DNA from: Escherichia phage Ecwhy_1
Strand: one strand, 5' to 3'
Sequence record: MH791411.1
Length of the DNA stretch: 64,000 nucleotides
Each line of letters opens with the position of its first letter. Position 1 is the first letter of the stretch. The notes beneath the pieces were generated by a model, which was not told the origin of the DNA, ran no database searches, and worked only from the letters and a program-made list of their open reading frames with translations. The position numbers and the translations under genes were made by a program. Shown here one piece after another: positions 196-63,872 of this stretch.

Positions 196-789
196 TCAGT
201 ATTTCAAAATATCAAACTCTGGACTAACACTTGTTACATTATCACTGACAATTTTGAAAATAGACTCAACACGTTCATGTAACTGAACATTGGTTTCTTC
301 TTGAACTTCAATATACGCTGACATGGATGCAATTGCATGATAAGTCCCACTTCCGACAGCAGTAATTTGTGTTTTAGGTTGCAGTACTGAAAAGTCTTCT
401 TGAACTTCATAAATCGTATGATTATGAAGAATAATGAACTGACCACCACCAACGTCTTGTGATGCATCACGAGCACCCCATTCATCTTTAAACATTTGAC
501 GAATGATAGGAATAACTTTCAGTACTAGATACTGTGAAAAGGTTTCCCCTGCAACTTGTTCTGGTAGAGTTAGGTTGTAATTCAACAACTGTCCCATGCG
601 GAACGAGGTAGTATACCCCAACGCCATTACTTCTTTAGTGCGAGAAAGACCATCCTCATTGAGTTTAATGAACTCTTTCTCAAATACTTTAGGCTCAGTT
701 TGAACTGCTTTAGTGAAACCATTGCTTCCTAATTTATCACCAGCGATGAAGGAAGATGTGCCATTTGTGTGAGCGATAATACAAGTCAT
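196..789 (-). CDS. HslV-like N-terminal-nucleophile (proteasome-type) peptidase
   Basis: Track ORF 196..858 trimmed to internal ATG at 787-789 so product begins M-T-C-I-I-A (Thr right after Met as in HslV); AVGSGT motif; revcomp upstream has AGGAG RBS. Confidence 0.7.
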   Translation of the reverse strand: MTCIIAHTNGTSSFIAGDKLGSNGFTKAVQTEPKVFEKEFIKLNEDGLSRTKEVMALGYTTSFRMGQLLNYNLTLPEQVAGETFSQYLVLKVIPIIRQMFKDEWGARDASQDVGGGQFIILHNHTIYEVQEDFSVLQPKTQITAVGSGTYHAIASMSAYIEVQEETNVQLHERVESIFKIVSDNVTSVSPEFDILKY

Positions 790-1046
790 GAAATAACTCC
801 TTGTGCAAAAAGGGCCGTATACAACCAGTATATCAACAACCCTAGTGTAAGTAAACATGCTCCATAAGAAATTGATAGAACATAGTAAATTCCTGCTTCT
901 AACTTGGATGAAAATTTGTGTGTACTGGAATCCATAAAACCACGTTTGTAGTCTTTATAGATGAAACATGTTAAAACTAATGTAATGCAATATACAATAG
1001 TTGTTGCATAAAAAACAAGAGATGTTAAGTTTTGTAAATTTGTCAT
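786..1046 (-). CDS. small hydrophobic (membrane) protein
   Basis: 86 aa ORF with two hydrophobic stretches; AGGAG 8 nt upstream of ATG; 4-nt overlap with downstream gene. Confidence 0.45.
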   Translation of the reverse strand: MTNLQNLTSLVFYATTIVYCITLVLTCFIYKDYKRGFMDSSTHKFSSKLEAGIYYVLSISYGACLLTLGLLIYWLYTALFAQGVIS

Positions 1047-1138
1047 AGTTTATACACTCCTAGTGTATGTGAACTTATAACAAAGGATGTACCACTTTAT
1101 CATCCTCTTATTATAATATTATTATTTTGTATCTAATA

Positions 1139-1747
1139 CTAATGAATGATACTACCTAATTCGAGCAACTGATCTGGTGTAAGTCTTACAACTTCATTAC
1201 CACGAACCTTACTAACCTCCACTAACAATTCTGGAGGAATACCATTCGCTGCATATAACGCAAATAGAACACCAACCTTAGTTGATAGCTGTTCAGCAAA
1301 AATAGTCATTTGGCGAACTGATATGTATGTGTCATCACTATTTCGTGCTTTACTTTCGATTGACACATTATGTAGACCTAGAATTGAGTCCTTCATCATG
1401 TATCTGTTTTCTATATTAGCACTAAAGAATGCGATAGTGCAAGAAGAATTACAATATCTTTCAACAATAATTGTTAAATTGTTATCATTGACAAAATTTC
1501 CTAGTGCCACTCCCGCATCAAAATCACCACCTGGTGACGTAATGATGATCGTGTCAAATGGGTGTGTTTCTCTAAAAACCATCAAACGGTTTACAGTATT
1601 TTCAGTTAAAGTTGAAATGAACTGAACTGTCTGTTTAGATTCATCATATCTAATGATACTTTTTCTTTCAACACCTGCACTTGCAGGAAAGTTAATTAAG
1701 AAAATAATAATAATAGATTGGATGATTTCTTTACATAATCGTACCAC
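1139..1747 (-). CDS. Clp-protease-superfamily (ClpP/SppA-like) serine peptidase with signal-peptide-like N-terminus
   Basis: 202 aa; ITSPGGDFDAG motif typical of ClpP/S49 fold; hydrophobic N-term ending ASAG; GTG start with AGAGGG RBS. Confidence 0.55.
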   Translation of the reverse strand: MVRLCKEIIQSIIIIFLINFPASAGVERKSIIRYDESKQTVQFISTLTENTVNRLMVFRETHPFDTIIITSPGGDFDAGVALGNFVNDNNLTIIVERYCNSSCTIAFFSANIENRYMMKDSILGLHNVSIESKARNSDDTYISVRQMTIFAEQLSTKVGVLFALYAANGIPPELLVEVSKVRGNEVVRLTPDQLLELGSIIH

Positions 1748-1787
1748 TGGTTAACCCTCTTAGTTGATTGTTGATTACATAAATAAT

Positions 1788-1814
1788 ATTATAGGAAGAT
1801 TTAACTTAAGTCAA
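1788..1814 (-). promoter_or_regulatory. sigma70-like promoter (TTGACT-N15-TATAAT on minus strand)
   Basis: Revcomp of 1788-1814 reads TTGACTtaagttaaatcttccTATAAT about 40 nt upstream of the 1747 start. Confidence 0.4.
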
Positions 1815-1882
1815 ATTGTTTTTTATATCACTTCACAAATTCCCTCGCAGAATCACCCCGCCTTTTTACCTTCTTTGGAATG

Positions 1883-1893
1883 ATTATATCACA
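1883..1893 (-). promoter_or_regulatory. extended -10 element TGTGATATAAT
   Basis: Revcomp of 1883-1893 is TGTGATATAAT; same 11-mer recurs upstream of clpP at 5409-5419. Confidence 0.3.
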
Positions 1894-2007
1894 CTAATGT
1901 ATAATGTCTATGCTTTTGTCAACAAATAACGTGGTAGTACTGAACTCGTTGTTGGTTCTAAGAGTTTTCCTGAAATTCAAACAAGTTGTGTACTAACAAA
2001 AGAAAAA

Positions 2008-2023
2008 GGAGCCTTATGGCTCC
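2008..2023. terminator. bidirectional intrinsic terminator hairpin
   Basis: GGAGCC-ttat-GGCTCC flanked by A-run (2002-2007) and T-run (2024-2030); immediately after stop of 2029..2295 gene. Confidence 0.55.
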
Positions 2024-2028
2024 TTTTT

Positions 2029-2295
2029 TTATTCTACCGTATTAAGTTTCTGACAAATCATGTCAGCTTCAACACGGTCTTTATAATAAATGGTAAAACC
2101 AAATTTACCAGTTACTTTATACTCTTTACAAGTTAAACAATTTACAATGTAGTACTTGTTGTTTTGTGCTGAAAATCGTACTTCATGATTACGCATCACT
2201 GGTGGAGTAGTATTATCATTTAATACCATCATCACTAAAAGTACAAGAATCACAACTGCAAATGGAATACCTAAAATCAAGAAAGTCAAAGTCAC
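2029..2295 (-). CDS. small membrane protein
   Basis: 88 aa; N-terminal 25-residue hydrophobic helix. Confidence 0.45.
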   Translation of the reverse strand: MTLTFLILGIPFAVVILVLLVMMVLNDNTTPPVMRNHEVRFSAQNNKYYIVNCLTCKEYKVTGKFGFTIYYKDRVEADMICQKLNTVE

Positions 2296-2768
2296 AACCC
2301 CTTATCATAAATGCAATTTACAATAATCCCAGCATCTTCCAGTACTTTAATAGCTTCTGGTGGAGTGCGAGGATAACTTTTGTGATAAATCACACGAGCA
2401 ATACCACTTCCCGCGATCAACTTAGAACAAGTATAGCATGGTTGTAGCGTTGTGTAAAGTGTTGCTCCCTGACGTTCAGTAGGTGAACTGTATAACAATG
2501 CATTCATTTCAGCATGGATTTCATGGATATTACTCCATTCATGGTGTTCATGCTTTGCGTCATCGCTAACCCAGTCTTGGAAACGTCCACCATTAACTAA
2601 GTGCTCATTAGCGTCACAGCAGTTAGGTTGTTTAGATGGAGTGCCATTATAACCAGTACTCAATACTCGGTTATTTTTAACAATAACACAACCAACTTTC
2701 TGTGAAATGCATTTACTCTCTTCAGCCACGACTTCGGCTATCTTCAACCACGTCAAGTGTTTCATCAT
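2292..2768 (-). CDS. dCMP deaminase (cytidine/deoxycytidylate deaminase family)
   Basis: 158 aa; zinc-binding H-A-E-x-N-A-L and P-C-x-x-C motifs. Confidence 0.85.
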   Translation of the reverse strand: MMKHLTWLKIAEVVAEESKCISQKVGCVIVKNNRVLSTGYNGTPSKQPNCCDANEHLVNGGRFQDWVSDDAKHEHHEWSNIHEIHAEMNALLYSSPTERQGATLYTTLQPCYTCSKLIAGSGIARVIYHKSYPRTPPEAIKVLEDAGIIVNCIYDKGL

Positions 2769-3249
2769 ATACTCCTAGGGATTGTAATTTGGCTTTACAG
2801 TTCGAATGTATTTTAAGAATACGAAGGTAGTTTAGCACATCTGATTCTTCAATGTCAAATGGTTTCGCTGCATAAACGTCCCATGCTCCCATTAATTCTG
2901 TACAGAACTTGATATCACCCGAACCCAGCAACTTGTCACGGAATTGTTTAAACTCGATTTCTTCATCGGATAATGAAAAACCCAAATCCATAAAGCACAT
3001 ACCACCAGCACTGAAGCATGACCCAGATGATGTACCAATTAAAATATCATCCATCCCATATAAGCCGTAAAAAATATTGGAGTACCAAGTACTAAGTTTA
3101 CTTCGGTGATGATATTTAAGAACATTCTTCTTGATATTTACATCTAATGAATTAGCTGTTGATATCACTTTTTTGGTTAAAATAATAGTTTTGTTCAAAT
3201 TACTCAACCATACTTTAGTATCAGTTGGGCTAAGAGCAGTGTATTTCAT
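2722..3249 (-). CDS. hypothetical protein
   Basis: 175 aa ORF in co-directional chain; GTSSGS motif only; 47-nt overlap with downstream gene. Confidence 0.45.
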   Translation of the reverse strand: MKYTALSPTDTKVWLSNLNKTIILTKKVISTANSLDVNIKKNVLKYHHRSKLSTWYSNIFYGLYGMDDILIGTSSGSCFSAGGMCFMDLGFSLSDEEIEFKQFRDKLLGSGDIKFCTELMGAWDVYAAKPFDIEESDVLNYLRILKIHSNCKAKLQSLGVYDETLDVVEDSRSRG

Positions 3250-3250
3250 G

Positions 3251-3775
3251 TTAATCCTCTAAATTCCATTCATCAACCATAGTTGAGCATAATTCCATGT
3301 GTCGGAAATATTTCTCATTAAGTGAATATGGACTCTTATAAAATTGTCGTACATCAGTGAATATATCATAGTTTCTATATATAAATGACATATTTTTATT
3401 CATGAATTCTATAATCTTCCATAACTTTTCTGTATCGTTTTGTATAGTTTCTGCACTCAATCCCGTCAATTTCATTAGACGCTTGATTTTGAAGCCTGAC
3501 TCTATTGACGTATTATTATGCTTAGTTAAGTAACTATAGCCGATAGAACTCTGTATTAGTTCGATACTATCAGTACTAGTTATTGTTCCTAGAAATGATT
3601 TTAAATTTCTATTCAACCAATACCATTTTTTGTTCTTGTTATAGCAAGAATACCACTTTTTAACTATAGCTATTGCCTCTGAATTTAAACTTTCGGCAAA
3701 TTCATCAATTAAAAACATGTGATTGAAAAATAAATCACTTTGATCTTCAGATAATTTATATTGCTGCATATCCAC
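3251..3775 (-). CDS. hypothetical protein
   Basis: 174 aa ORF in co-directional chain. Confidence 0.5.
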   Translation of the reverse strand: MDMQQYKLSEDQSDLFFNHMFLIDEFAESLNSEAIAIVKKWYSCYNKNKKWYWLNRNLKSFLGTITSTDSIELIQSSIGYSYLTKHNNTSIESGFKIKRLMKLTGLSAETIQNDTEKLWKIIEFMNKNMSFIYRNYDIFTDVRQFYKSPYSLNEKYFRHMELCSTMVDEWNLED

Positions 3776-3850
3776 CTACCCTATTAACAATTACACCTTG
3801 GGTATTTACCTCGTATGGATCAATTTTTGATCAATAATTTTTGATATGCA

Positions 3851-3881
3851 GCAAATAAAATGGGAATCATGAAAGATTCCC
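3851..3881 (-). terminator. intrinsic terminator
   Basis: Minus-strand hairpin GGGAATC-tttcat-GATTCCC followed by ATTTTATTTGC; directly after stop of 3889..4335. Confidence 0.45.
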
Positions 3882-3888
3882 TAAGTAA

Positions 3889-4335
3889 TTATTTCTGGAA
3901 TGGAGTGTACTGGTACTGCTCACAATCAGATACAGTTAGTACACCTTCATCATAACCGTACTGGAGAATAAGATCAAATGCTTTATCAACCATAGCTACA
4001 ACGTCTTTGTAACGAACGATGGTATGTGCCTGTTTCTCAACTGCTTTCATAATACCCATCAACATCCAGCGACCTTCATCAGTGTGAAGTTTAGCAAAAC
4101 GAGGACGTTTAGTTGCTGCCATAATGTCAGTCCATTCTGCTTTAAACACTGATGGACGTTTAGGAATATCATACAGAGTTGTTGGGAATGTTACGTTGTT
4201 TTTCTTCATAGCTTCAGCTTGTGCAGCACGATAACCTTGACGGAATAGTGGGTGCTGTGATTTTAGCTGTTCATTGTTAAAAACTACTTTGTTTTTAAAC
4301 GCGGCAGAACCTTCTTTGTATTGTGCATTAGACAT
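3889..4335 (-). CDS. hypothetical protein
   Basis: Track ORF trimmed to ATG at 4333-4335 (MSNAQYKEG) preceded by GAGGGGAAAGAATAAT. Confidence 0.5.
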   Translation of the reverse strand: MSNAQYKEGSAAFKNKVVFNNEQLKSQHPLFRQGYRAAQAEAMKKNNVTFPTTLYDIPKRPSVFKAEWTDIMAATKRPRFAKLHTDEGRWMLMGIMKAVEKQAHTIVRYKDVVAMVDKAFDLILQYGYDEGVLTVSDCEQYQYTPFQK

Positions 4336-4336
4336 A

Positions 4337-4666
4337 TTATTCTTTCCCCTCGTCAGTACTGATGAATTTTTTATCTGAGAATGTGCCATGTTCTTGACGC
4401 ATAGCTTCTGCGTGTTGAACTGCGTTAATTGGATTAATGTTCTTTTTAATAAGAACTTCTTGCATTAGTTCGAGAACAATAGAAAAACCATTGAGTACTC
4501 GTTCTGCCTCGTCAACACCTTTCAATTCAATAGCCACTGCACTAATCTGATCTAATGCGGTATTAATAAACTCTGAATCATCTAACACATCATTGACTTC
4601 AGTATTATTACGTACAAGAACTTTCATATAATCTCCAGAAATAAGATGCCCCAAATGAGGCATCAA
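4337..4666 (-). CDS. hypothetical protein
   Basis: 109 aa ORF in chain. Confidence 0.5.
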   Translation of the reverse strand: MMPHLGHLISGDYMKVLVRNNTEVNDVLDDSEFINTALDQISAVAIELKGVDEAERVLNGFSIVLELMQEVLIKKNINPINAVQHAEAMRQEHGTFSDKKFISTDEGKE

Positions 4667-4678
4667 ATGAAATTCAAA

Positions 4679-5374
4679 TTAGACCCACTCTTCCACGCCA
4701 CCGCGACGTTTGACGAGATACTTACCTTCTTCGTTGCGTGGACCAAGGATGATACCATCAATGAAACCATGTTCACCGTATTCGAGTGCTTCTTCAGCGT
4801 TCAACCACAGGTCACGATCCGCATCTTTCAGTAGTTGTTCGTGTGATACACCAACTGCTTCAGCAATTTCTTTAGTCAGTAGTGTGTTCAATGCATCAGA
4901 GTGTTTCAAGGAAATCTTCTGATCAGTAATCAGACCCTGAGTACCGGAACTTACTTGGTGACACATGAAGTAAGAACGCTTCCCGCCTAGACGGAAACCT
5001 TTAGTACCAACTACTGATTGTGTATAGCAACCCATTGATGCTGCATAACCCATTACTACTGTACGGATAGGAGATACACAAGACTTAGCAATGTCAGCGA
5101 TACCTAAACCTGCGTGTACTGAACCACCAGGAGAACTAATGTAGAAGGTAATTGGTTCAGAACCCTGAGAATCCAACCACACCAATTGTTGCTTGATGAT
5201 ATGTGCCATTTGGTCATTGAAGTCAGTATCAAGGAAAATGATACGGTCTTGCATCATACGAGATGCTAGATCATAAGTACGTTCTGCACCATTAACTTTT
5301 TCAACTACATAAGGAATAGAAATGTCGCGAACTTCACCACCAGCATAACCACCAAAATTGAATTGTTCAACCAT
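4679..5374 (-). CDS. clpP: ATP-dependent Clp protease proteolytic subunit ClpP
   Basis: 231 aa; YISSPGGSV, MGYAASMG (Ser nucleophile), downstream His and Asp; collinear with bacterial ClpP; AGAGGAAAATAACA RBS. Confidence 0.9.
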   Translation of the reverse strand: MVEQFNFGGYAGGEVRDISIPYVVEKVNGAERTYDLASRMMQDRIIFLDTDFNDQMAHIIKQQLVWLDSQGSEPITFYISSPGGSVHAGLGIADIAKSCVSPIRTVVMGYAASMGCYTQSVVGTKGFRLGGKRSYFMCHQVSSGTQGLITDQKISLKHSDALNTLLTKEIAEAVGVSHEQLLKDADRDLWLNAEEALEYGEHGFIDGIILGPRNEEGKYLVKRRGGVEEWV

Positions 5375-5408: not shown

Positions 5409-5440
5409 ATTATATCACAGTGTTCGTATTTGTCTACAAG
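5409..5440 (-). promoter_or_regulatory. sigma70-like promoter with extended -10 (CTTGTAG ... TGTGATATAAT)
   Basis: Revcomp of 5409-5440 = cttgtagacaaatacgaacacTGTGATATAAT, about 35 nt upstream of clpP start. Confidence 0.4.
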
Positions 5441-20732: not shown

Positions 20733-21115
20733 CTATAGTTTAATATTGAAATGGGTAGACTATATATATGTACGTAAAGTTTATCAACTCTTTCCATATT
20801 CACTTTTAAAGTACTTCCAAGACGACTGATGCTATCTATGCGATAAAGCACGTCATTCAGCATCATTACGGTATCGGTGTAATCTTCACTAAGAGATTCA
20901 ATGTAGATATCTTCAAGTTTCACATCCGTGCGTGGGATATCTAAATCCCTCAATAAACGCAGTGTTTGCACGATCAGTTCAGCTTTAGTCATGGATACGC
21001 TCACAATTAAGGCAATAAATGCACTCAATGTCAGGTCGCCATGATTTATCAAAATCTTTGTGCTGTTCTTCAGTGTATTCCGAATCATCATTGATGGGAA
21101 AGAAATCACCAGCAC
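20729..21115 (-). CDS. hypothetical protein (start uncertain, possibly ATG at 20992)
   Basis: 128 aa ORF; 5' part overlaps zinc-ribbon ORF in another frame. Confidence 0.4.
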   Translation of the reverse strand: MLVISFPSMMIRNTLKNSTKILINHGDLTLSAFIALIVSVSMTKAELIVQTLRLLRDLDIPRTDVKLEDIYIESLSEDYTDTVMMLNDVLYRIDSISRLGSTLKVNMERVDKLYVHIYSLPISILNYR

Positions 21116-21185
21116 CAGTGGCCCAGTCTGAATCTAAACGGAAACGAGCTAATTGAGTACTGTTGCAATATGGACATTTATTCAA
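20985..21185 (-). CDS. zinc-ribbon protein
   Basis: 66 aa; C-P-Y-C ... C-I-Y-C-L-N-C. Confidence 0.35.
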   Translation of the reverse strand: MNKCPYCNSTQLARFRLDSDWATGAGDFFPINDDSEYTEEQHKDFDKSWRPDIECIYCLNCERIHD

Positions 21186-21462
21186 AATTTATTCCTTCTA
21201 ACTGATATACGTTTAATGAAAATGACCCACTATTATTATCGCATCTGAAACACAGTGTTAAAGAACCATTAAAACTAACAACATCAGTACATATACATTT
21301 TTCACCATTGGATATGATAGATTTTCCTATATATAAATCTCTTACTATAGTACGGTAATGTTGCCATAAAAAATAATACACACTTTCATAGTACTCATCT
21401 TTTACATATGACAAGTATAAGAATTTATAAAATACTTGTATTTCCTTTAAGTTGTTTTTCAT
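21178..21462 (-). CDS. family C paralog
   Basis: 94 aa; N-term M-K-N-N-L-K-E-I-Q-V-F-Y-K-F-L-Y; one of five tandem paralogs. Confidence 0.5.
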   Translation of the reverse strand: MKNNLKEIQVFYKFLYLSYVKDEYYESVYYFLWQHYRTIVRDLYIGKSIISNGEKCICTDVVSFNGSLTLCFRCDNNSGSFSLNVYQLEGINFE

Positions 21463-21736
21463 TCTCCAACTCCAGTAAATTTACACCAATCCAATCAACA
21501 TCACTATCAGTACTTAATTCCAATCGTAGCTTACCGCTATGACTAACAATATCGCGGAATTTGTATATTTTATTATCACGAACTATACACAAATCATGGT
21601 AATATTCATGTAATTCATCCAAAAACTTTATCCATACCGAACGATAGATTTCACCGTAGAGATATTCTCCAGCATCAACCGTAGCGTATTGGATATACAA
21701 AAATTTGTATGTGAATTGTATATCATTAAGATTCAT
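21425..21736 (-). CDS. family C paralog
   Basis: 103 aa; N-term M-N-L-N-D-I-Q-F-T-Y-K-F-L-Y. Confidence 0.5.
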   Translation of the reverse strand: MNLNDIQFTYKFLYIQYATVDAGEYLYGEIYRSVWIKFLDELHEYYHDLCIVRDNKIYKFRDIVSHSGKLRLELSTDSDVDWIGVNLLELENEKQLKGNTSIL

Positions 21737-21746
21737 ATGTCAATCC

Positions 21747-22058
21747 TTATAGGTCCGTTAACTTCAAAACTTTGATCTCCATAAATTCCCTATCAGTTTT
21801 TTCAAGAAATTCTACATGGATAATACCTTGATAAGATTTGACACCTGAATATTCGAATATATCATCTCCATCAGTGTAAGTACTGTAATTCTTTTTTATA
21901 TATTCAGCAATAGAATCTAAGTAATCATAGTAATTATGAATAAATGGTGATTCTTTTGATTCTACATGTTCACCAATCTTCCCACTAAAAAGATACATGT
22001 CATACAAACCGTATATATTTTTATATGTGAATTGAACATCATTCAAATTTAATTTCAA
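21747..22058 (-). CDS. family C paralog
   Basis: 103 aa; N-term M-K-L-N-L-N-D-V-Q-F-T-Y-K. Confidence 0.5.
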   Translation of the reverse strand: MKLNLNDVQFTYKNIYGLYDMYLFSGKIGEHVESKESPFIHNYYDYLDSIAEYIKKNYSTYTDGDDIFEYSGVKSYQGIIHVEFLEKTDREFMEIKVLKLTDL

Positions 22059-22315
22059 GGGAATATCTCCAGAGGAACACTCGTAAATCCAAAATCTGTG
22101 AAGAACTGTACCTCAACTTTACCATCGAGCTTAATGATTATATCTGAAAATTCTGCATGATCGTTATTAATAATTACAGTACTGAATTTTTCTTTAATCC
22201 TCTCACGCACAGTATTAATCATTTCATTACATGTATCTTCTAAAAATATACTATTATTTTTATTTGCTAGGTCACGAATGCACTTGAATGTTAATTGGAA
22301 ATCTTTATAATTCAT
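22055..22315 (-). CDS. family C paralog
   Basis: 86 aa; N-term M-N-Y-K-D-F-Q-L-T-F-K. Confidence 0.5.
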   Translation of the reverse strand: MNYKDFQLTFKCIRDLANKNNSIFLEDTCNEMINTVRERIKEKFSTVIINNDHAEFSDIIIKLDGKVEVQFFTDFGFTSVPLEIFP

Positions 22316-22581
22316 ATATTCACCAAATCCACAGAGAATAGGTCGTTATCAAATTTATATGAAAGTACTAATCTACCACCGAAACTATCTACTCTAAGTA
22401 TCTTTCGTTTTTTTCCATTAATGACAATTTCAGTATTAACAAAATACTCACGTAATTCTTCTAGATAATTTGACCATATTTTATGGGTAAACGCATTTTT
22501 ATTAATTGTGTTAGTACTTCGGTGATTGTGGTGTAATTTAAATAATTCCATATAAGTGAATTGTATATGTTTGTAATTCAT
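22312..22581 (-). CDS. family C paralog
   Basis: 89 aa; N-term M-N-Y-K-H-I-Q-F-T-Y-M; AAGGGGAAAT RBS. Confidence 0.5.
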   Translation of the reverse strand: MNYKHIQFTYMELFKLHHNHRSTNTINKNAFTHKIWSNYLEELREYFVNTEIVINGKKRKILRVDSFGGRLVLSYKFDNDLFSVDLVNI

Positions 22582-22591
22582 ATTTCCCCTT

Positions 22592-22620
22592 ACAAAAATA
22601 GCCCGAACTTATGTCGGGCT
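22592..22620 (-). terminator. intrinsic terminator
   Basis: Minus-strand hairpin AGCCCGA-cataagt-TCGGGCT followed by ATTTTTGT; just after stop of 22628..23287. Confidence 0.4.
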
Positions 22621-22627
22621 ATATGTA

Positions 22628-23287
22628 TTATTCATCGTCATCATCGTCGTCGAGATCTAGGTAAATGTCACTATCACCATCATCGAAGTACTCAACCACT
22701 ACACCAGGAATGTTCAGTGCTGTGAACATCGCATCATATTTTTCATCAGATGGGATAAGAACAAACTCATCAATGCTTTGAATTTCAGGCATACGATCTT
22801 CAGGAATACCCATTTGCAATAAGGATTGGATGATTTTTTCTTTGTATTCTTGGAACTTCTCTTCTGATTCAAAATCCATAATAAGTTGTGCTACATAACC
22901 ATCTTCGTTACCAAATGCGATTGACATTTGTGCATCAGTACCGACATATGACCATGTACGCTTGCCAGTATTTTTCTCAATGAAGTTCTGAATTTCAAGA
23001 ACGATTTCATGACGAGAACTATTGGCAATGTTGTTAAGGTTAGCAACACCAGCAATAATTTCTGAACTGTCATTGGATTCTTCGAATGTGCCATAGTCAC
23101 CTAATACATATTGAACACCATCACAATGTAATGCATATGCATAATCCAAATCAGCAAGTGAATCACACTTACCACGGATTGGGCGTAGGGAAAGCCCTAG
23201 GCGAAGATAACGAAAATATGTATTAGTATTTGTATTTGTCAACGTAATGCTCCTTAACAATATAAAAGTAGTTGCTGTTGTTGTCAA
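22628..23287 (-). CDS. hypothetical protein with poly-Asp C-terminus (start uncertain)
   Basis: 219 aa ORF; N-terminal 40 aa low-complexity and probably not translated; C-term DLDDDDDDE. Confidence 0.4.
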   Translation of the reverse strand: MTTTATTFILLRSITLTNTNTNTYFRYLRLGLSLRPIRGKCDSLADLDYAYALHCDGVQYVLGDYGTFEESNDSSEIIAGVANLNNIANSSRHEIVLEIQNFIEKNTGKRTWSYVGTDAQMSIAFGNEDGYVAQLIMDFESEEKFQEYKEKIIQSLLQMGIPEDRMPEIQSIDEFVLIPSDEKYDAMFTALNIPGVVVEYFDDGDSDIYLDLDDDDDDE

Positions 23288-23531
23288 AAAAGATGACTAA
23301 TCCTTTGTAGACATTTACACCAATCTTGATTTGGCATATTTTATTCGATTTACAAGCCTCAGTCAATAACATTTTGTGCTCTTTACTGAAAGTGTGGAAG
23401 AGTGGTTTTACATGCCACATCTCCACACCATCTAGTACTGGAAAATGTTCACTGAATTTGATCATTGATTCTTGCAAAAAATAACCTGTTAGATTTGAAT
23501 CATCAGACATGTAAGTTCGCCAGGAAGTCAA
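23223..23531 (-). CDS. hypothetical protein
   Basis: 102 aa ORF. Confidence 0.4.
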   Translation of the reverse strand: MTSWRTYMSDDSNLTGYFLQESMIKFSEHFPVLDGVEMWHVKPLFHTFSKEHKMLLTEACKSNKICQIKIGVNVYKGLVIFFDNNSNYFYIVKEHYVDKYKY

Positions 23532-23796
23532 TTACTTCGTCATGTGTTAACTTATCACTACGCTCTAGAACATTGATGATGAATGGTGTTTGACTATATA
23601 ATTCAGCCAGAAACGCAACTTCATCAGATGTATAAGAATATCCCATAGGAACAACTTGTGCAGTCCAGTTTCCTAAAGTTTTGTTTGCAATGATTGCAAC
23701 CACCGTATTACCTTTGAATTCAACATGGATTGAACGGAAACCCGAATCCTCATTCTGATCCCAAAGTACTGGGTTAGTTTTAAACAGTACTGACAT
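23503..23796 (-). CDS. hypothetical protein
   Basis: 97 aa ORF. Confidence 0.45.
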   Translation of the reverse strand: MSVLFKTNPVLWDQNEDSGFRSIHVEFKGNTVVAIIANKTLGNWTAQVVPMGYSYTSDEVAFLAELYSQTPFIINVLERSDKLTHDEVIDFLANLHV

Positions 23797-23798
23797 AG

Positions 23799-24332
23799 TT
23801 ATTTCCTCATGTATTTTATTACATCTTCAAATAGTTTAGTTTTCAGTGCATCATCATTACCAGGTAGAAAAGTACTGAAGCTATTAAAATCTTCATTCTT
23901 GGCAAACTCACGCATCTGTGTGGAACTGTAGCGACTTATATTTCGGTCAATTCCAGCTTGAACTGCCTTGATTGAACAAAAATTATATAACTTCCCATTG
24001 TACGTGTCAAGTGTTTTTTGGAATGGTTCAAGTCTATCTGAACCACATATGAAAAGAACATCTAAGTACTTTCCATCCAGTTCTCTCATTATATCAAACA
24101 GATTATCTTCTGTATAGATATTTTCTTGTACAGATGGGTAAAATCCTTCTGTATAGTACATTTTCAGTTCAGGAGGTAATGGGTTTTTGATGGCATCAGT
24201 ACTGGTACTAAGGAATATTTTCAAATCAGCATTGTACTGTTCTTGTAGTGCTTGAGCTTTTTCAAACACTAAACCATGACCTCGATGTACAGGGTTAATT
24301 CTTCCGAATGTCACTACGCATGTTTCTTTCAT
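23799..24332 (-). CDS. HxGH-motif nucleotidyltransferase (cytidylyltransferase-like; possibly NMN adenylyltransferase type)
   Basis: 177 aa; N-terminal T-F-G-R-I-N-P-V-H-R-G-H. Confidence 0.65.
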   Translation of the reverse strand: MKETCVVTFGRINPVHRGHGLVFEKAQALQEQYNADLKIFLSTSTDAIKNPLPPELKMYYTEGFYPSVQENIYTEDNLFDIMRELDGKYLDVLFICGSDRLEPFQKTLDTYNGKLYNFCSIKAVQAGIDRNISRYSSTQMREFAKNEDFNSFSTFLPGNDDALKTKLFEDVIKYMRK

Positions 24333-24853
24333 ATGTTCTTCATCACCTGACCAATAGATTTAAGATGGTTGATTTTAGCTGGAGTCAAATACTTATCCAG
24401 TACTATTAAACAACTAGGGAATGGAGCACTGTCAGTCTTTTTATCTGGTTCTTCAGGGATACCGAACTTTAAGCGACCTTTTATAAAACAAATACAATCA
24501 CAAACTTTCGCAGCATAATCCTGAAAGGCTATAGTATCAGTTCTTGATGGTACGAGAATCAGTACTGTAGCACCTTTGTTATATGCATCAACTGCCTTAG
24601 ATAACCACGTTTTCAAATCACTGTACGGTGGGTTGAGCCACACGATATTGTTTCCCCAGTCCTGTTCAAGTGAATTGTCTTCTGGTGTAAAGAAATTATC
24701 ACACAATGCTGTTTCTTTAACACATGCTGCATCTAGTGTAAATCCCCAGAGTTCATCCAAATCTTCAAAGAAATCCTTTGGAGTAGTCCAGTTATCTTTC
24801 CCAGTACTGAAATGTACTGATTGTTTTTTCTTCGAAGCATCCTTCTTCGACAT
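24329..24853 (-). CDS. phage Dam-type DNA N6-adenine methyltransferase
   Basis: 174 aa; D-N-W-T-T-P-K-D-F-F and W-L-N-P-P-Y-S catalytic motif. Confidence 0.8.
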   Translation of the reverse strand: MSKKDASKKKQSVHFSTGKDNWTTPKDFFEDLDELWGFTLDAACVKETALCDNFFTPEDNSLEQDWGNNIVWLNPPYSDLKTWLSKAVDAYNKGATVLILVPSRTDTIAFQDYAAKVCDCICFIKGRLKFGIPEEPDKKTDSAPFPSCLIVLDKYLTPAKINHLKSIGQVMKNI

Positions 24854-24869
24854 ACATAATTTCCTTTGA

Positions 24870-25415
24870 TTATAGACAGTTAAGTACTATGTCATCAAAA
24901 GTACTACTGTCAATGTTGTATTCATATAAAAATTTAAAATGTGATCCATAACGCATCATCAGATTAAACTCTTCTTCAGTATTAAATTTGTAATCATGAA
25001 GAGTTTCAAGGGTACATGTTAAACCTAAAAACTCAATAATTTCTGATGTTACATCATTTCCTGAATTGAAGTATTTAACCCAAACACATTTTCCTTGTGG
25101 GTTGAATTTTCTATATTCTCCTTCTAGTTCTCCATTGACGATATGTGCTTTCGCACTGATTAGATTATTACTATAACGCTCTTCGTAGTAGTTCCCATAA
25201 CGAGCTTTAAGAATTGTAGGCTTCTTGGTTGGGAATAACTTAATGGAAGTTAATTCAAAACCGCACTGCAACTCTTTGATGTACGAAATACATCCCTTTT
25301 CTTTAATCACAACAAAACCAGTAAAATTCTCTTGGTCTTGGTTCTGATTGTCTGAATCAACAAATTCTAGTGTTTTATAAGTGACGCTTTTAGATTTTTT
25401 AATAAATGACATCAT
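24870..25415 (-). CDS. hypothetical protein (family-A-like TEEEFNLMMRYG segment)
   Basis: 181 aa ORF. Confidence 0.5.
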   Translation of the reverse strand: MMSFIKKSKSVTYKTLEFVDSDNQNQDQENFTGFVVIKEKGCISYIKELQCGFELTSIKLFPTKKPTILKARYGNYYEERYSNNLISAKAHIVNGELEGEYRKFNPQGKCVWVKYFNSGNDVTSEIIEFLGLTCTLETLHDYKFNTEEEFNLMMRYGSHFKFLYEYNIDSSTFDDIVLNCL

Positions 25416-26097
25416 TATTCCTATGGAAACATCAATGACTGTACATGGCGTTGACTACATCAACACCAGTCGAATTATACACGCTTCGCATGTCTAATTC
25501 GACGAAAGTACTATGATTTGTTTTAATTAATATTGACGGGGTTTGCTTGAGCATATTTCATCCCCCCCGCAGGGGAAAGAACAAAAAAAGTTTGACGCTG
25601 GTGGCCTTCACATAGTTCATATCACGAATTCTCTTACGAGGCGAAAGCGGGTTGCTCTGTTTCTCTCTATCGCGGTTCTTGTAGCAACGGTCGTCGGTCT
25701 TAAACATCCCGACACATAATACAAATACCATATGACCAGTACTTGTATTTGATTTCACGAATTTTGGACGCAACTATATTGTATAAATTACGACCGCAAA
25801 TTTCTCATGAAATCTCCCTTAGATAATTGGTAAGGTGCGATCCTTATATGTCTATCGAGGAACTCTCTTTATCCTATTGGAGTTCTTTATACAGCCGCAT
25901 TGCCGTGAGTGGTTCAAACTATGCCATCATCTAACGGGTTTCATTTGCTGTTCGTACTGAAAGGACTACTCATCTACCCTCTACTTTTCGAGTGGATTAG
26001 GCTTTAATCATTTCCATATGGAACCTTTCAGGATTAAAAAAAGGCGACAACATATTCTGCTGTCACCTTACATTATATCATAAACTTATGGTATGTC
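25416..26097. other. ORF-free island, apparently G+C-richer than flanks; candidate structured RNA / regulatory region
   Basis: About 680 bp with no credible ORF on either strand; 9-bp inverted repeat 25469-25477/25495-25503; direct repeat TCACGAATT at 25622 and 25755; runs such as tcccccccgcagggg. Confidence 0.4.
26034..26067 (-). terminator. intrinsic terminator
   Basis: Minus-strand hairpin GGTGACA-n11-TGTCGCC (one G-U) followed by TTTTTTTAA; directly after stop of 26098..26946. Confidence 0.5.
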
Positions 26098-26946
26098 TCA
26101 GTTGTATTCTGTTTTTTCAGTGAAATTAGTTAAGATATCTGCACTTAAGCTTCTCATAACCTCAATCTTACTTGGCATGAACCTGTGCTTGTTTTTTACA
26201 TACAACTCATCATCTTCAATGAAAGATGTGAACATGAATACCATATCTTCACGTGGAATTGAGAGAATATTACAGTTTTCATTTTCAGCAACAGGGGAAT
26301 CATTGTAGTACTTAGAGAATGCAGTACTTTGACGACCGATTATGATAGAATTTCGGATTAGAAAATTACTACAGTACTGAAAATCTTTGTAGTACTTGTC
26401 AAGGATATATGGCATTATCGCTTCTTTCACTTCTTCATATCCATTGGTACTATCAATTTCAGTACAATAATCTTCTCGGTCTTTTTTCCCTCGATGATTA
26501 TCAAACTCGTACTCAAAGAATAAATTTTTATTTAATGAATCATTTGAACCAACTGATCCACTATAGTATGATTTTCTATCATTCATTCGATCATCCGGGC
26601 ATGATGCATACATAGAAATGTCATGTGTTGACGTACCGATATAAATTTTCTTAGTAATGTGATTGTACGCGATGTAATCATAATCTTGTACTCCAGTTAG
26701 CATTAACTGGAACATCAATTCATCAGGAACATCAATTAACGGGTACTCAAACTTCGAATATCTACTACGACAGAAATTCTTTTCAAATGCTCGATATGCG
26801 ATGAAATCTTTTAGGTTTGTAATAGATTCATGCTCATGTGTACTACTGGTGCGTACATTGACATTAGTAGACGAGCAATACCCTTCAGATTCTTCTGCGT
26901 AGTCATAATAACCCTTACTGTAGTCAACGATTAGATAAAGTTTCAT
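26098..26946 (-). CDS. hypothetical protein (282 aa)
   Basis: Long ORF; no motif recognised. Confidence 0.55.
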   Translation of the reverse strand: MKLYLIVDYSKGYYDYAEESEGYCSSTNVNVRTSSTHEHESITNLKDFIAYRAFEKNFCRSRYSKFEYPLIDVPDELMFQLMLTGVQDYDYIAYNHITKKIYIGTSTHDISMYASCPDDRMNDRKSYYSGSVGSNDSLNKNLFFEYEFDNHRGKKDREDYCTEIDSTNGYEEVKEAIMPYILDKYYKDFQYCSNFLIRNSIIIGRQSTAFSKYYNDSPVAENENCNILSIPREDMVFMFTSFIEDDELYVKNKHRFMPSKIEVMRSLSADILTNFTEKTEYN

Positions 26947-26997
26947 ATATCTCCAGACAAAAAAAAGACGAGATATTATATCCCGTCCTTTGGTTTA

Positions 26998-27303
26998 TTA
27001 GTGGCTTGCCCAGCAGTAAACAGGACGTAGATTTTCCATTGGGTTTACTTCAGGCTTCAGTACTGTAACACGAACTTCATACGGAGTACCATCTGCATGA
27101 TGGAACGTTTCGTAATGAATACTCTCAATGAAGGTTTCATATTCTTCTTGAGAACGTGAACGAACTGATGGGGAATATTTCTTTTTGGTATCTGATTTTA
27201 GTGTAACACTTACTAGTTCTGATTCTTCACCATTTTCAAGTTTATTGAAATCGAACTCTGGTACACCTTCAAACATATCAAATTTCATTCCGTTGTCTTC
27301 CAT
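26998..27303 (-). CDS. hypothetical protein
   Basis: 101 aa ORF. Confidence 0.5.
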   Translation of the reverse strand: MEDNGMKFDMFEGVPEFDFNKLENGEESELVSVTLKSDTKKKYSPSVRSRSQEEYETFIESIHYETFHHADGTPYEVRVTVLKPEVNPMENLRPVYCWASH

Positions 27304-27741: not shown

Positions 27742-27812
27742 CTATATCTCCATTTATCAAAAAAAGATGTGAACATTATATCACAAGGAATTGTCATGTC
27801 CACAATATTTTA

Positions 27813-40738: not shown

Positions 40739-40797
40739 TGTGATATAACCCTTTACAATTAATATAAAGAGATTATATCACAAAGATTTGGAGGGTG

Positions 40798-63814: not shown

Positions 63815-63844
63815 AGGGACTCCATTAAAAATAATATCAATCCA

Positions 63845-63872
63845 ATAATATACGATTCATATAAAAAGTCAA
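63845..63872 (-). promoter_or_regulatory. sigma70-like promoter TTGACT-N16-TATTAT heading the family B array
   Basis: Revcomp of 63845-63872 = TTGACTttttatatgaatcgtaTATTAT, about 30 nt upstream of the first family B start. Confidence 0.45.

What the first reader, a model, noticed from the sequence alone, without database searches (positions are those of the whole stretch)
196..5374. Three phage-encoded compartmentalised-protease subunits within 5 kb: HslV-like, bona fide ClpP, and a signal-peptide-bearing Clp-superfamily peptidase
ClpP (4679-5374) has an intact Ser motif and is collinear with cellular ClpP. The HslV-like ORF (196-789) has Thr directly after the initiator Met, as needed for an N-terminal nucleophile. 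The third (1139-1747) has the S-P-G-G Clp-fold motif but a hydrophobic leader ending A-S-A-G, suggesting export. No ATPase partner (ClpX/ClpA/HslU) and no capsid or portal genes are in the window, so these do not look like prohead proteases. A phage bringing its own degradation chambers could be hijacking host unfoldases.
Basis: partly seen in the sequence, partly recalled or inferred. Interest (0 to 1): 0.55.

Follow-up and report, generated by a model that had tools for sequence, protein, structure and literature searches.

The report
Three non-capsid proteases of a jumbo phage
A giant E. coli phage carries three intact protease genes that are not its capsid-maturation enzyme (a ClpP that probably works with the phage's own ClpA motor, a partnerless proteasome-like threonine protease, and an exported ClpP-like enzyme); the genes were already annotated in relatives, but none has been studied.

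Summary
The window is 100% identical to the published jumbo coliphage fEgEco12 (121Q/Asteriusvirus group). All three ORFs lie on the minus strand at the stated coordinates and are under purifying selection.

- **ClpP (4679-5374):** it keeps Ser113/His139/Asp188.
- **HslV-like ORF (196-789):** this is a proteasome-fold protein with invariant Met-Thr-Cys, Asp18 and Lys34.
- **Third ORF (1139-1747):** it has a ClpP fold with invariant Ser101/His126, a C-x-S-x-C signature and a Sec-type leader. It belongs to a large exported family that has no Pfam model of its own.

They are not the head protease. A T4 gp21-type S77 protease sits between the portal and capsid genes about 120 kb away, and virion mass spectrometry of the relative phAPEC6 lists none of the three.

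The "orphan chambers hijack host unfoldases" reading is only partly right. The genome encodes a full-length ClpA with intact motors and an I-G-M ClpP-docking loop, plus a weak ClpS-like protein. No HslU or ClpX homologue exists.

The Clp and HslV-like genes are already annotated and discussed for Rak2-like phages, and phage proteasome homologues were described in 2021. I found no description of the exported family. Interest is modest.

The parts
4679..5374 (-). Phage ClpP (231 aa; fEgEco12 g207). Catalytic codons: Ser113 at 5036-5038, His139 at 4958-4960, Asp188 at 4811-4813. It has an 18-aa N-terminal extension and a conserved 22-aa C-terminal extension.
   Evidence: Pfam CLP_protease 143 bits. 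PDB ClpP hits E 4e-36, collinear. 36% identity to E. coli ClpP with the triad aligned. dN/dS 0.036. Codons checked.
5409..5436 (-). Sigma-70-like promoter with extended -10 (TAGACA-16-TGTGATATAAT) directly upstream of clpP.
   Evidence: 11 of 12 consensus matches plus the TG. Same motif class as upstream of the exported ClpP-like gene and of clpA. Consensus match only; not shown to be functional.
4645..4664 (-). Terminator-like hairpin just downstream of clpP. This suggests a monocistronic unit.
   Evidence: 8-bp stem with 5 GC pairs and a T-rich tail.
1139..1747 (-). Exported ClpP-fold Ser/His protein (202 aa; g214; GTG start). Ser101 at 1445-1447, His126 at 1370-1372, Cys99 at 1451-1453, Cys103 at 1439-1441, SPGGD at 1523-1537.
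1676..1747 (-). Predicted Sec signal peptide (residues 1-24): n-region with R3 and K6, h-region I8-F20, c-region P-A-S-A, predicted cleavage before G25.
   Evidence: Hydrophobicity maximum 2.5-3.2 over residues 7-19. FPASA is invariant in close orthologues. 135 of 170 family members have a comparable N-terminal hydrophobic segment and 32 have a lipobox-like Cys. No dedicated signal-peptide predictor was available.
1883..1910 (-). Sigma-70-like extended -10 promoter (TAGACA-16-TGTGATATAAT) upstream of the exported ClpP-like gene. It probably drives the 1747-196 three-gene unit.
2003..2028 (-). Strong terminator-like hairpin that separates the upstream genes from the promoter at 1883-1910.
   Evidence: 11-bp stem followed by a T-run.
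786..1046 (-). Small protein (86 aa; g215) with two predicted transmembrane helices. Its stop overlaps the HslV-like start (ATGA). It is conserved in the same position in 121Q (gp474).
   Evidence: ORF. Hydrophobic 19-mers at residues 7-30 and 53-82. Synteny in 121Q. Overlap seen. dN/dS 0.255.
196..789 (-). Proteasome-like (HslV/BPH-type) N-terminal-nucleophile threonine hydrolase (197 aa; g216). Thr2 at 784-786, Asp18 at 736-738, Lys34 at 688-690, Gly-Ser-Gly at 346-354.
   Evidence: PHROG 1040 'peptidase HslV family' E 2.6e-22. Family profile against PDB: HslV E 6e-8 with Thr1/Asp17/Lys33 aligned. AlphaFold pLDDT 92.4. Foldseek: HslV E 3e-10, BPH TM 0.74-0.78. Invariant columns.

Best explanation
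The region encodes three separate non-structural proteolytic functions of a Rak2/121Q-type jumbo phage. They are probably transcribed by host RNA polymerase from sigma-70-like extended -10 promoters.

(1) ClpP. The ClpP at 4679-5374 is a catalytically competent subunit. It most likely assembles with the phage's own ClpA-type double-ring unfoldase (g327, outside the window), and perhaps with a diverged ClpS-like adaptor (g414). Together they would form a phage-specified ATP-dependent ClpAP protease that degrades selected host or early phage proteins in the cytoplasm.

(2) HslV-like protein. The protein at 196-789 is a proteasome-family threonine hydrolase whose Thr1 is exposed by removal of the initiator Met. 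It has no phage HslU. It most likely acts as a self-assembling, ATP-independent peptidase in the manner of BPH or Anbu-type homologues. It is one of the phage-borne proteasome homologues already catalogued in silico.

(3) Exported ClpP-like protein. The protein at 1139-1747 is a ClpP-fold Ser-His hydrolase that is exported, or anchored, across the inner membrane by a Sec-type leader. It would act without ATP in the periplasm.

What is shown: intact active sites, folds, selection, genomic placement, the ClpA partner gene and its docking loop, the separate S77 head protease, and absence from a relative's virion proteome.

What is inferred: complex formation, substrates, timing, export and any enzymatic activity.
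For: Identity and conservation. Purifying selection.

ClpP:
- Triad and collinearity.
- It scores far better against cellular ClpP models (TIGR00493, 153 bits) than against the ClpP-related head-maturation model (51 bits).

Phage ClpA:
- PDB E. coli ClpA E 5.6e-178, end to end.
- TIGR02639 ClpA is the best model, 752 bits.
- Walker A/B, KYRG and GYVG pore loops intact. Docking tripeptide is IGM (fEgEco12), IGV (RaK2), LGM (GAP32), IGF (Deifobo) and IGL (E. coli).
- ClpP and ClpA co-occur in Asteriusvirus, RaK2, GAP32, Erwinia, Yersinia and Salmonella relatives and PA5oct-like phages.
- The same promoter motif lies upstream of clpP, the exported ClpP-like gene and clpA.

Not head proteases:
- Peptidase_S77 lies between portal and Gp23 capsid genes.
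- phAPEC6 virion MS lacks gp345c, gp346c, gp353c and gp246 but has the S77 protease.

HslV-like protein:
-.
- No HslU or ClpX in the genome.
- Relatives sit in early, nucleotide-metabolism or anti-defence neighbourhoods without an adjacent unfoldase.

Exported ClpP-like protein:
-.
- Synteny with ClpP is kept in RaK2 and in a metagenomic relative.
Against: - No experiment exists for any of these proteins.
- clpA lies about 87 kb from clpP. The shared promoter motif is a general class (9 exact copies in the genome), so co-regulation is only suggestive.
- Several residues that I recall as forming the E. coli ClpP docking pocket differ in the phage ClpP: Y60 to T, F82 to S, L114 to G. This may mean co-adaptation to the phage ClpA, but it could also mean altered or lost docking.
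- ClpP does not reach the NCBIfam equivalog cut-offs.
- The ClpS-like assignment is weak (E 0.014 to 0.7). By my reading of the alignment, it lacks two residues I recall as binding N-degrons.
- One peptide of the CBB ClpP was seen in virion MS.
- Signal-peptide cleavage was judged by rule, not by a trained predictor. RaK2's orthologue has no clear A-x-A site, so the leader may be an uncleaved anchor.
- The GSG serine of the HslV-like family is not invariant.
Confidence: 0.6

Rival explanations
1. The phage supplies only proteolytic chambers, and these dock onto host unfoldases: ClpP on E. coli ClpX or ClpA, and the HslV-like protein on HslU. This would redirect host ATP-dependent proteolysis.
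For: No ClpX or HslU homologue exists anywhere in the phage genome. The HslV-like protein therefore has no phage-encoded partner. Phage ClpP keeps the N-terminal loop region and several pocket positions of E. coli ClpP (Y62, M92, I90 to V). Mixed use of host ClpX is not excluded.
Against: The phage encodes its own ClpA with a ClpP-docking loop, conserved together with ClpP across the clade. Pocket residues recalled as important for IGF/IGL docking are replaced. The HslV-like protein is only 16-20% identical to HslVs and scores 18.9 bits against the HslV equivalog model with cut-off 137. Its family is common in T5-like and other phages, in neighbourhoods with no unfoldase.
Confidence: 0.2
2. 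One or more of the three are head-maturation or virion-associated proteases, as the GenBank and RefSeq labels 'head maturation protease' say.
For: The best PHROG for ClpP is phrog_94 'head maturation protease'. ClpP-fold prohead proteases are common in tailed phages. One peptide of the CBB ClpP orthologue was found in virion MS. A gene labelled structural (2722-3249) lies between the proteases.
Against: A dedicated Peptidase_S77 prohead protease lies in the portal-scaffold-capsid module about 120 kb away. It is the protease detected in phAPEC6 and RaK2 virions. Orthologues of the three genes are absent from the 62-protein phAPEC6 virion list. NCBIfam Clp_rel_HeadMat scores are 51 and 15.5 against a cut-off of 120. 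The neighbours are ligase, dCMP deaminase, phosphoesterase, Sir2 and NUDIX.
Confidence: 0.05
3. The exported ClpP-like protein is not a soluble periplasmic protease. Instead it is an inner-membrane-anchored enzyme of the SppA or NfeD type that works together with the adjacent two-helix membrane protein, for example by clipping membrane proteins or leader peptides. Alternatively it is a non-proteolytic hydrolase or a pseudo-enzyme.
For: RaK2's orthologue lacks a clear A-x-A site. A 2-TM protein gene follows in the same unit and is conserved in 121Q. SppA and NfeD are the known exported or membrane-bound ClpP-fold proteases, and both appear in the fold matches. No acidic third residue is conserved in the family.
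Confidence: 0.25
4. The HslV-like protein is not a protease. It could be another kind of N-terminal-nucleophile enzyme, such as a ligase or transpeptidase like the proteasome homologue connectase, or an amidohydrolase acting on a small molecule.
For: Proteasome-like homologues include a non-protease, connectase, as discussed in PMC8665760. The family has its own strongly conserved motif, T-T-S-F-R-M-G-Q, which is absent from HslV. Its neighbours are metabolic and anti-defence genes.
Against: Thr1/Asp17/Lys33 and the GSG region are those of proteolytic members. The structural neighbours are HslV, BPH and beta subunits. Connectase appears only at E 0.23.
Confidence: 0.12

Closest known systems
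E. coli ClpAP(S) protease (ClpP MEROPS S14, ClpA, ClpS)
   Same: ClpP fold and Ser-His-Asp triad, 36% identity. The partner is a double-ring ClpA homologue at 43% identity with both ATPase sites, both pore loops and an [I/L]-G-hydrophobic docking loop. A ClpS-like core may also be present.
   Different: It is encoded by a virus, and the genes are dispersed (clpP, clpA and the clpS-like gene are 87-170 kb apart). ClpP has N- and C-terminal extensions and altered pocket positions. All three proteins fall below the NCBIfam equivalog cut-offs. The ClpS-like protein is 181 aa with a long N-terminal extension and only weak similarity.
HslV, BPH and the phage-associated proteasome-like homologues AAH, CPH and PPH (Fuchs, Alva, Lupas 2021, PMC8665760)
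   Same: Proteasome beta-like fold with Thr1/Asp17/Lys33 and no propeptide. It is phage-borne, like PPH, AAH and CPH. It has no known ATPase partner, like BPH.
   Different: It is not HslV proper: 16-20% identity, no HslU, 18.9 bits against a cut-off of 137. It is longer than PPH (about 140 aa, lacking helix H2) and is predicted to have all four flanking helices. It has its own invariant M-T-C start and a TTSFRMGQ motif. I could not test which of AAH or CPH it belongs to.
SppA (signal peptide peptidase A, S49) and NfeD/1510-N membrane proteases
   Same: ClpP/crotonase-fold serine hydrolases that act outside the cytoplasm or at the membrane, without ATP.
   Different: The window protein keeps the ClpP-type Ser and His rather than a Ser-Lys dyad. 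It is a single 20-kDa domain closest in fold to ClpP. It carries a C-x-S-x-C motif around the nucleophile that none of the known families has.
ClpP-related and T4 gp21-type (S77) phage prohead proteases
   Same: Phage-encoded, and in the ClpP-related case the same fold. The database labels equate them with the window proteins.
   Different: The window genes lie outside the head module and are not in the virion proteome of a close relative. The phage already has an S77 prohead protease in the canonical position.

Membership tests
ClpP (MEROPS S14; Pfam PF00574; TIGR00493) - ORF 4679-5374 | Ser-His-Asp triad at the canonical positions in a collinear ClpP domain | tested here: met
   S113/H139/D188 align with E. 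coli S97/H122/D171, and with the same residues in four phage orthologues. Pfam score is 143 bits against a cut-off of 20.2.
ClpP (MEROPS S14; Pfam PF00574; TIGR00493) - ORF 4679-5374 | Score above the curated equivalog cut-off for bacterial ClpP | tested here: not met
   TIGR00493 scores 153 bits against a cut-off of 308.6. PRK00277 scores 156 against 249. It is a divergent ClpP, not an equivalog of the cellular enzyme.
ClpP (MEROPS S14; Pfam PF00574; TIGR00493) - ORF 4679-5374 | A cognate AAA+ unfoldase carrying an IGF/IGL-type docking loop | tested here: met
   g327 is a ClpA homologue with an I-G-M loop, and it is conserved together with ClpP across the clade. Physical interaction was not tested.
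ClpP (MEROPS S14; Pfam PF00574; TIGR00493) - ORF 4679-5374 | Hydrophobic docking pocket and assembly into a tetradecamer | tested here: inconclusive
   Of eight pocket positions recalled from memory, Y62 and M92 are kept and I90, F112 and L189 are conservatively replaced. Y60 to T, F82 to S and L114 to G are not conservative. Oligomeric state is not testable with these tools.
HslV (TIGR03692 / PRK05456) - ORF 196-789 | N-terminal Thr nucleophile with Asp17 and Lys33 | tested here: met
   M1-T2, D18 and K34 are invariant in 33 homologues. They align to HslV T1/D17/K33 in the profile search.
HslV (TIGR03692 / PRK05456) - ORF 196-789 | Score above the HslV equivalog cut-off | tested here: not met
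   18.9 bits against 137, and 18.1 against 157.75. There is no Pfam Proteasome hit. Identity in structural alignments is 16-20%.
HslV (TIGR03692 / PRK05456) - ORF 196-789 | A cognate HslU ATPase encoded with it | tested here: not met
   tblastn of E. coli HslU against the whole 374,733-bp genome hits only a P-loop stretch inside clpA (E 8e-4). None is annotated. None lies next to distant homologues.
Phage proteasome-like homologues PPH / AAH / CPH (PMC8665760) - ORF 196-789 | PPH: about 140 residues, lacking helix H2 | tested here: not met
   The protein is 197 aa. The AlphaFold model has helices at 63-72, 84-104, 149-166 and 170-184.
Phage proteasome-like homologues PPH / AAH / CPH (PMC8665760) - ORF 196-789 | Clustering with the AAH or CPH reference sequences | not testable with these tools
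   The reference accessions (WP_035979212, WP_008185288) could not be fetched. The only support is the general fit: group I, phage-borne, compact, no propeptide.
ClpP-related head maturation protease (NF045542; PHROG 94) | Position in the head module, score above cut-off, and presence in proheads or virions | tested here: not met
   Scores are 51.1 (ClpP) and 15.5 (third ORF) against a cut-off of 120. The head module with an S77 protease is elsewhere. The proteins are absent from the phAPEC6 virion MS. The single CBB peptide is the only contrary datum.
SppA / NfeD (Ser-Lys ClpP-fold membrane proteases) - ORF 1139-1747 | Ser-Lys catalytic dyad | tested here: not met
Exported C-x-S-x-C ClpP-fold family (no Pfam model of its own) - ORF 1139-1747 | S-x-G-G, C-x-S-x-C and His motifs plus an N-terminal hydrophobic leader | tested here: met
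   1,496 representative clusters at E <= 1e-3. C-x-S-x-C is present in 168 of 170 members and S-x-G-G in 168 of 170. A hydrophobic leader is present in 135 of 170. Only weak CLP_protease or NfeD hits appear in Pfam. Export itself was not tested.
ClpA (TIGR02639) - g327, outside the window | N-domain, two AAA+ modules, D2-small domain, docking loop, no ClpB middle domain | tested here: met
   It aligns end to end with E. coli ClpA, residues 17-741 against 20-734. Pfam finds AAA, AAA_lid_9, AAA_2 and ClpB_D2-small. At 752 bits it is the best model but below the equivalog cut-off of 993.
ClpS (PF02617) - g414, outside the window | ClpS core fold with N-degron-binding residues | tested here: inconclusive
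   Pfam E 0.014 (15.6 bits against a cut-off of 23). NCBIfam E 0.065. All five PDB hits are ClpS but at E 0.4-0.7. By eye, positions I recall as D36 and H66 are Pro and Asn.

The most novel reading that the evidence does not exclude
The exported protein at 1139-1747 would be a member of a large, unrecognised family of ATP-independent periplasmic or lipoprotein Ser-His peptidases built on the ClpP fold. The family has more than 1,400 representative clusters in bacteria and phages, and its nucleophile elbow may be stapled by a C-x-S-x-C disulfide. The phage would deploy this protein early, together with the co-transcribed two-helix membrane protein and the partnerless proteasome-like threonine protease, as an envelope-directed proteolytic module. 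Possible tasks are removing receptors or defence proteins, or blocking superinfection. Its roughly four- to seven-fold higher dN/dS than ClpP and the HslV-like gene would then reflect an arms race at the host surface.
Probability: 0.2. Interest if true: 0.6.

Novelty: new member of a known kind. Interest (0 to 1): 0.35.

Why it matters
If the phage really assembles its own ClpAP(S) machine, it would be a tractable case of a virus importing a complete regulated-proteolysis system rather than borrowing or inhibiting the host's. Its substrates would then be worth finding, and could include host defence proteins, host housekeeping proteins or the phage's own early proteins.

The partnerless proteasome homologue belongs to a family that is frequent in T5-like and jumbo phages and has no known function. 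The exported C-x-S-x-C ClpP-fold family is widespread and has no dedicated Pfam model.

A practical point also follows. The 'head maturation protease' labels on these genes in public records are probably wrong, and they propagate.

Against this, the genes are already annotated, and published comparative papers already state the idea that jumbo-phage ClpP targets host proteins rather than capsids.

Tried and rejected
- **g308 'ATPase' as a hidden HslU-like partner: rejected.** This 442-aa protein is the size of HslU and sits behind the same promoter motif. However, it has no PDB or NCBIfam similarity to HslU or ClpX, it belongs to phrog_1297, and its phAPEC6 orthologue gp265c is a virion protein.
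- **Upstream ATG at 858 as the HslV-like start (a 23-aa propeptide): rejected.** The Shine-Dalgarno site, the ATGA overlap and the invariant M-T-C start all point to 789.
- **A specific 'Clp regulon' promoter: weakened.** The TGTGATATAAT motif occurs 9 times in the genome, in front of unrelated genes too.
- **Second HslV-like gene g518 compared with the first:** no detectable profile similarity. It starts M-T-T and has a GSGG motif. It was left as a side observation.
- **Single-sequence searches that found nothing useful:** the third ORF against the PDB gave no hit, and the HslV-like ORF against Pfam gave no hit. Profiles and structure prediction were needed for both.
- **afdb50 fold library:** not available.
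- **PA5oct supplementary expression tables:** not held.
- **Names for distant members of the exported family:** the only named one was a hypothetical protein of Ferrimonas balearica.

Full report
**Source of the window.** The first 6 kb are 100% identical to Escherichia phage fEgEco12 (PP777464.1, 374,733 bp), a 121Q/PBECO4-type (Asteriusvirus, 'Rak2-like') jumbo myovirus. They are about 80% identical to 121Q itself. Window position x corresponds to record position 85917-x on the opposite strand.

The three ORFs are annotated there as g216 'protease', g214 'head maturation protease' and g207 'protease'. In 121Q they are gp475 'peptidase HslV family (ClpYQ-like)', gp473 'protease (ClpP-like)' and gp464 'head maturation protease (ClpP-like)'. 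The fEgEco12 genome paper does not mention proteases at all.

**Checking the observation.** All three ORFs are on the minus strand at exactly the stated coordinates.

*ClpP (4679-5374, 231 aa).*
- It matches Pfam CLP_protease at 1.3e-41 and solved ClpPs at about 4e-36 over residues 20-208.
- It is 36% identical to E. coli ClpP. Ser113, His139 and Asp188 sit on the catalytic Ser97, His122 and Asp171, and the preceding Arg is kept.
- It scores much better against cellular ClpP models than against the ClpP-related head-maturation model (153 against 51 bits). It stays below the equivalog cut-offs.

*HslV-like ORF (196-789, 197 aa).*
- It has no Pfam hit but matches PHROG 1040 'peptidase HslV family'.
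- Its start is well defined. AAGGAG lies 7 nt upstream, and the ATG overlaps the stop of the preceding ORF.
- In 33 homologues down to 25% identity, M1, T2, C3, D18, K34, G146 and G148 are invariant.
- A profile of that alignment finds HslV in the PDB (E 6e-8) with Thr1, Asp17 and Lys33 in register.
- The AlphaFold model is confident (pLDDT 92.4). It matches HslV (E 3e-10), BPH (TM up to 0.78) and proteasome beta subunits.

*Third ORF (1139-1747, 202 aa, GTG start behind AAGAGGG).*
- It barely passes Pfam CLP_protease (20.6 against 20.2 bits).
- S71-P-G-G-D75, C99, S101, C103 and G124-L-H126 are invariant in orthologues. Ser101 and His126 align with the ClpP Ser and His.

*Selection.* dN/dS against 121Q is 0.036 (ClpP), 0.066 (HslV-like) and 0.258 (third ORF). 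All three are therefore maintained by selection, although dS is near saturation.

**Are they head proteases?** I read the annotation of the whole genome.
- The head module lies at record 199.8-206 kb. It runs portal (g345), g348, a scaffold-like gene, then capsid g350.
- g348 is Pfam Peptidase_S77, the T4 gp21 type (8e-21), and g350 is Gp23 (9.5e-90).
- In the close relative phAPEC6, virion mass spectrometry found 62 proteins. These include the S77 protease gp227c. They do not include gp345c (HslV-like), gp346c (third ORF), gp353c (ClpP) or gp246, which by gene order should be the ClpA-like gene.
- RaK2 virions likewise contain the gp21-type protease.
- The only contrary datum is one peptide (4.5% coverage) of the CBB ClpP orthologue in a virion preparation.
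- The neighbours of the three genes are DNA ligase, a phosphoesterase, dCMP deaminase, Sir2, NUDIX and PhoH.

The 'head maturation protease' labels look like name transfer from PHROG 94.

**Is there really no ATPase partner?** Within the window there is none. In the genome there is one.
- g327 (record 168077-170365, 762 aa) aligns end to end with E. coli ClpA (E 5.6e-178; residues 17-741 against 20-734). Identity is 43% over 732 residues.
- It has the Pfam architecture AAA, AAA_lid_9, AAA_2 and ClpB_D2-small, without a ClpB middle domain. Its best NCBIfam model is ClpA.
- Both Walker A and B pairs are intact, as are the KYRG and GYVG pore loops.
- The ClpP-docking tripeptide is I-G-M in fEgEco12, I-G-V in RaK2, L-G-M in GAP32, I-G-F in the PA5oct-like phage Deifobo, and I-G-L in E. 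coli.
- tblastn shows that this ClpP and this ClpA occur together in Asteriusvirus, RaK2 and K64-1, GAP32, Erwinia, Yersinia and Salmonella relatives and the PA5oct group.
- g414, annotated 'protease adapter protein', gives only weak but consistent ClpS signals: Pfam E 0.014, and all five PDB hits are ClpS at E 0.4-0.7.
- No ClpX or HslU homologue exists. The E. coli proteins hit only the ClpA gene.
- A 442-aa 'ATPase' (g308) is not HslU-like, and its orthologue is a virion protein.

**Transcription signals.**
- clpP has a TAGACA-16-TGTGATATAAT promoter-like site (5436-5409) and a terminator-like hairpin (4664-4645).
- The third ORF has the same element (1910-1883), preceded by a strong hairpin (2028-2003).
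- clpA, although embedded among oppositely oriented tail and baseplate genes, carries TTGACA-N-TGTGATATAAT immediately upstream.
- The motif is a general promoter class. There are 9 exact copies in the genome, all on one strand. It therefore argues for host-polymerase, non-late expression rather than for a dedicated regulon.
- The third ORF, a two-helix 86-aa membrane protein (786-1046) and the HslV-like ORF look like one unit. That arrangement is kept in 121Q.

**ClpP: most likely mechanism.** The simplest reading is a phage-specified ClpAP protease.
- Several positions that I recall as lining the E. coli ClpP docking pocket are changed in the phage enzyme: Y60 to T, F82 to S, L114 to G. These changes recur in RaK2 and GAP32.
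- The ClpA loop has its own tripeptide variants. This is compatible with a co-adapted pair but does not prove it.
- A 22-residue C-terminal extension (…RNEEGKYLVKRRGGVEEWV) is conserved among the enterobacterial phages. Its role is unknown.
- Substrates are unknown. Published comparative work already proposes that jumbo-phage ClpP is aimed at host proteins (PMC7824862). Another paper lists ClpA, ClpP and ClpS in Rak2-like phages (PMC6102473).

**The HslV-like protein.**
- It fails the tests for HslV proper. The equivalog score is 18.9 against 137, structural-alignment identity is 16-20%, and there is no HslU.
- It belongs to a family found in 196 phage records. Many are T5-like phages, where the gene sits among ribonucleotide reductase, thymidylate synthase and RNase H genes.
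- In three distant metagenomic phage contigs it lies in a PhoH, dCMP deaminase and ligase neighbourhood that also holds anti-defence genes (Gad2, Apyc1). No adjacent unfoldase is present.
- Phage-borne proteasome homologues (PPH, AAH, CPH) were described in silico in 2021 (PMC8665760). This protein is too long and too helix-complete for PPH. I could not test AAH or CPH membership.
- A Salmonella jumbo-phage paper had already noted HslV genes without HslU.
- RaK2 lacks this gene. In its place are NadR-like and NAMPT genes.
- fEgEco12 has a second, unrelated-looking candidate, g518. It starts M-T-T and has a GSGG motif.

**The exported ClpP-like protein.**
- The leader has R3 and K6, a 13-residue hydrophobic core, Pro at -4 and A-S-A before Gly25. 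FPASA is invariant in close orthologues.
- An exhaustive profile search found 1,496 representative clusters at E <= 1e-3.
- Among 170 sequences held, 168 have C-x-S-x-C, 168 have S-x-G-G, 135 have a strongly hydrophobic N-terminal 12-mer and 32 have a lipobox-like Cys. None of the 72 HslV-like proteins has such a hydrophobic segment.
- In a 40-sequence alignment of distant members, only S71, G73, G74, C99, S101, C103 and H126 are invariant.
- Of those 40, 10 match Pfam CLP_protease and 6 match NfeD1b_N, none better than E 2.4e-07, and no other family recurs.
- At least one member is chromosomal, in Ferrimonas balearica.
- Two cysteines flanking the nucleophile in an exported protein suggest a disulfide. 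That is my inference only.
- The gene evolves about four to seven times faster in dN/dS than ClpP or the HslV-like gene.
- It keeps its position a few kb from clpP in RaK2 and in a 37%-identical metagenomic relative.
- RaK2's leader lacks an obvious cleavage site, so an uncleaved anchor is possible.

These are not capsid proteases, and the third one is very probably exported. However, ClpP is not an orphan chamber, because the phage has its own ClpA. The HslV-like protein is a known type of phage proteasome homologue rather than a true HslV.

The genes and the general idea are already in databases and in the literature. The exported C-x-S-x-C family, and the specific ClpA-ClpP pairing evidence, are the parts I did not find described. 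No function has been tested for any of them.

Noticed in passing
window about 58637-64000, minus strand (record 21091-27280): A tandem array of at least 27 paralogous small ORFs (g057-g084, 60-85 aa), often overlapping by 4 nt. There are 193 pairwise blastp matches at E <= 1e-3, and the ORFs share a G-T-N-Y-Q-E-like motif. Function is unknown.
   Followed up: partly
window 1883-1893, 5409-5419, 27775-27785, 40772-40782 (minus strand); genome-wide in PP777464.1: The extended -10 motif TGTGATATAAT, usually with GACA about 14 nt upstream, occurs 9 times in the 375-kb genome, always on the same strand. This looks like the phage's own class of host-polymerase promoter. In the window, 16 matches allowing 1 mismatch were found against 6.3 expected.
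   Followed up: partly
outside the window: PP777464.1 168077-170365 (L006:18077-20365): A full-length ClpA homologue (g327) with an I-G-M docking loop. It is embedded among oppositely oriented tail and baseplate genes but has an early-type promoter.
   Followed up: yes
outside the window: PP777464.1 251795-252340 (L008:1795-2340): g414 'protease adapter protein' is a weak ClpS-like core (residues 63-139) behind a 60-aa N-terminal extension, next to a phage IF3 gene. By eye, two N-degron-binding positions are not conserved.
   Followed up: partly
outside the window: PP777464.1 305560-306057 (L009:5560-6057): A second candidate proteasome-like gene (g518, 165 aa). It starts M-T-T and has F-M-G-S-G-G. 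It shows no detectable profile similarity to the first one. It may be a PPH-type homologue.
   Followed up: partly
window 786-1046, minus strand: An 86-aa protein with two predicted transmembrane helices sits between the exported ClpP-like and HslV-like genes. Its stop overlaps the HslV-like start. It is conserved in 121Q (gp474).
   Followed up: partly
just beyond window position 1 (L001:369-5963) and in L011, L027: The proteases border a Sir2, NUDIX, PhoH and WGR cluster. In RaK2 and a metagenomic relative, the slot next to the exported ClpP-like gene holds NadR-like and NAMPT genes. This suggests an NAD-salvage or counter-defence region.
   Followed up: no
window 2722-3249 and 2292-2768, minus strand: A gene labelled 'structural protein' (phrog_19307) overlaps the start of dCMP deaminase by 47 nt. 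It is one of the fastest-evolving genes in the region (49% identity to 121Q, dN/dS 0.37). Its phAPEC6 orthologue is not in the virion MS list.
   Followed up: partly
window 1139-1747 and 4679-5374; public records of 121Q, RaK2, fEgEco12 and others: The 'head maturation protease' annotations for ClpP and the ClpP-like gene in GenBank and RefSeq conflict with the genome context and with virion proteomics. They seem to be propagated from the PHROG 94 name.
   Followed up: yes
PP777464.1 1-21000 and 353700-374733 (outside the window): Judging from the annotation tables alone, the gene sizes and order of g01-g56 repeat as g615-g670. This suggests a direct terminal repeat of about 21 kb. The sequences were not compared.
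   Followed up: no
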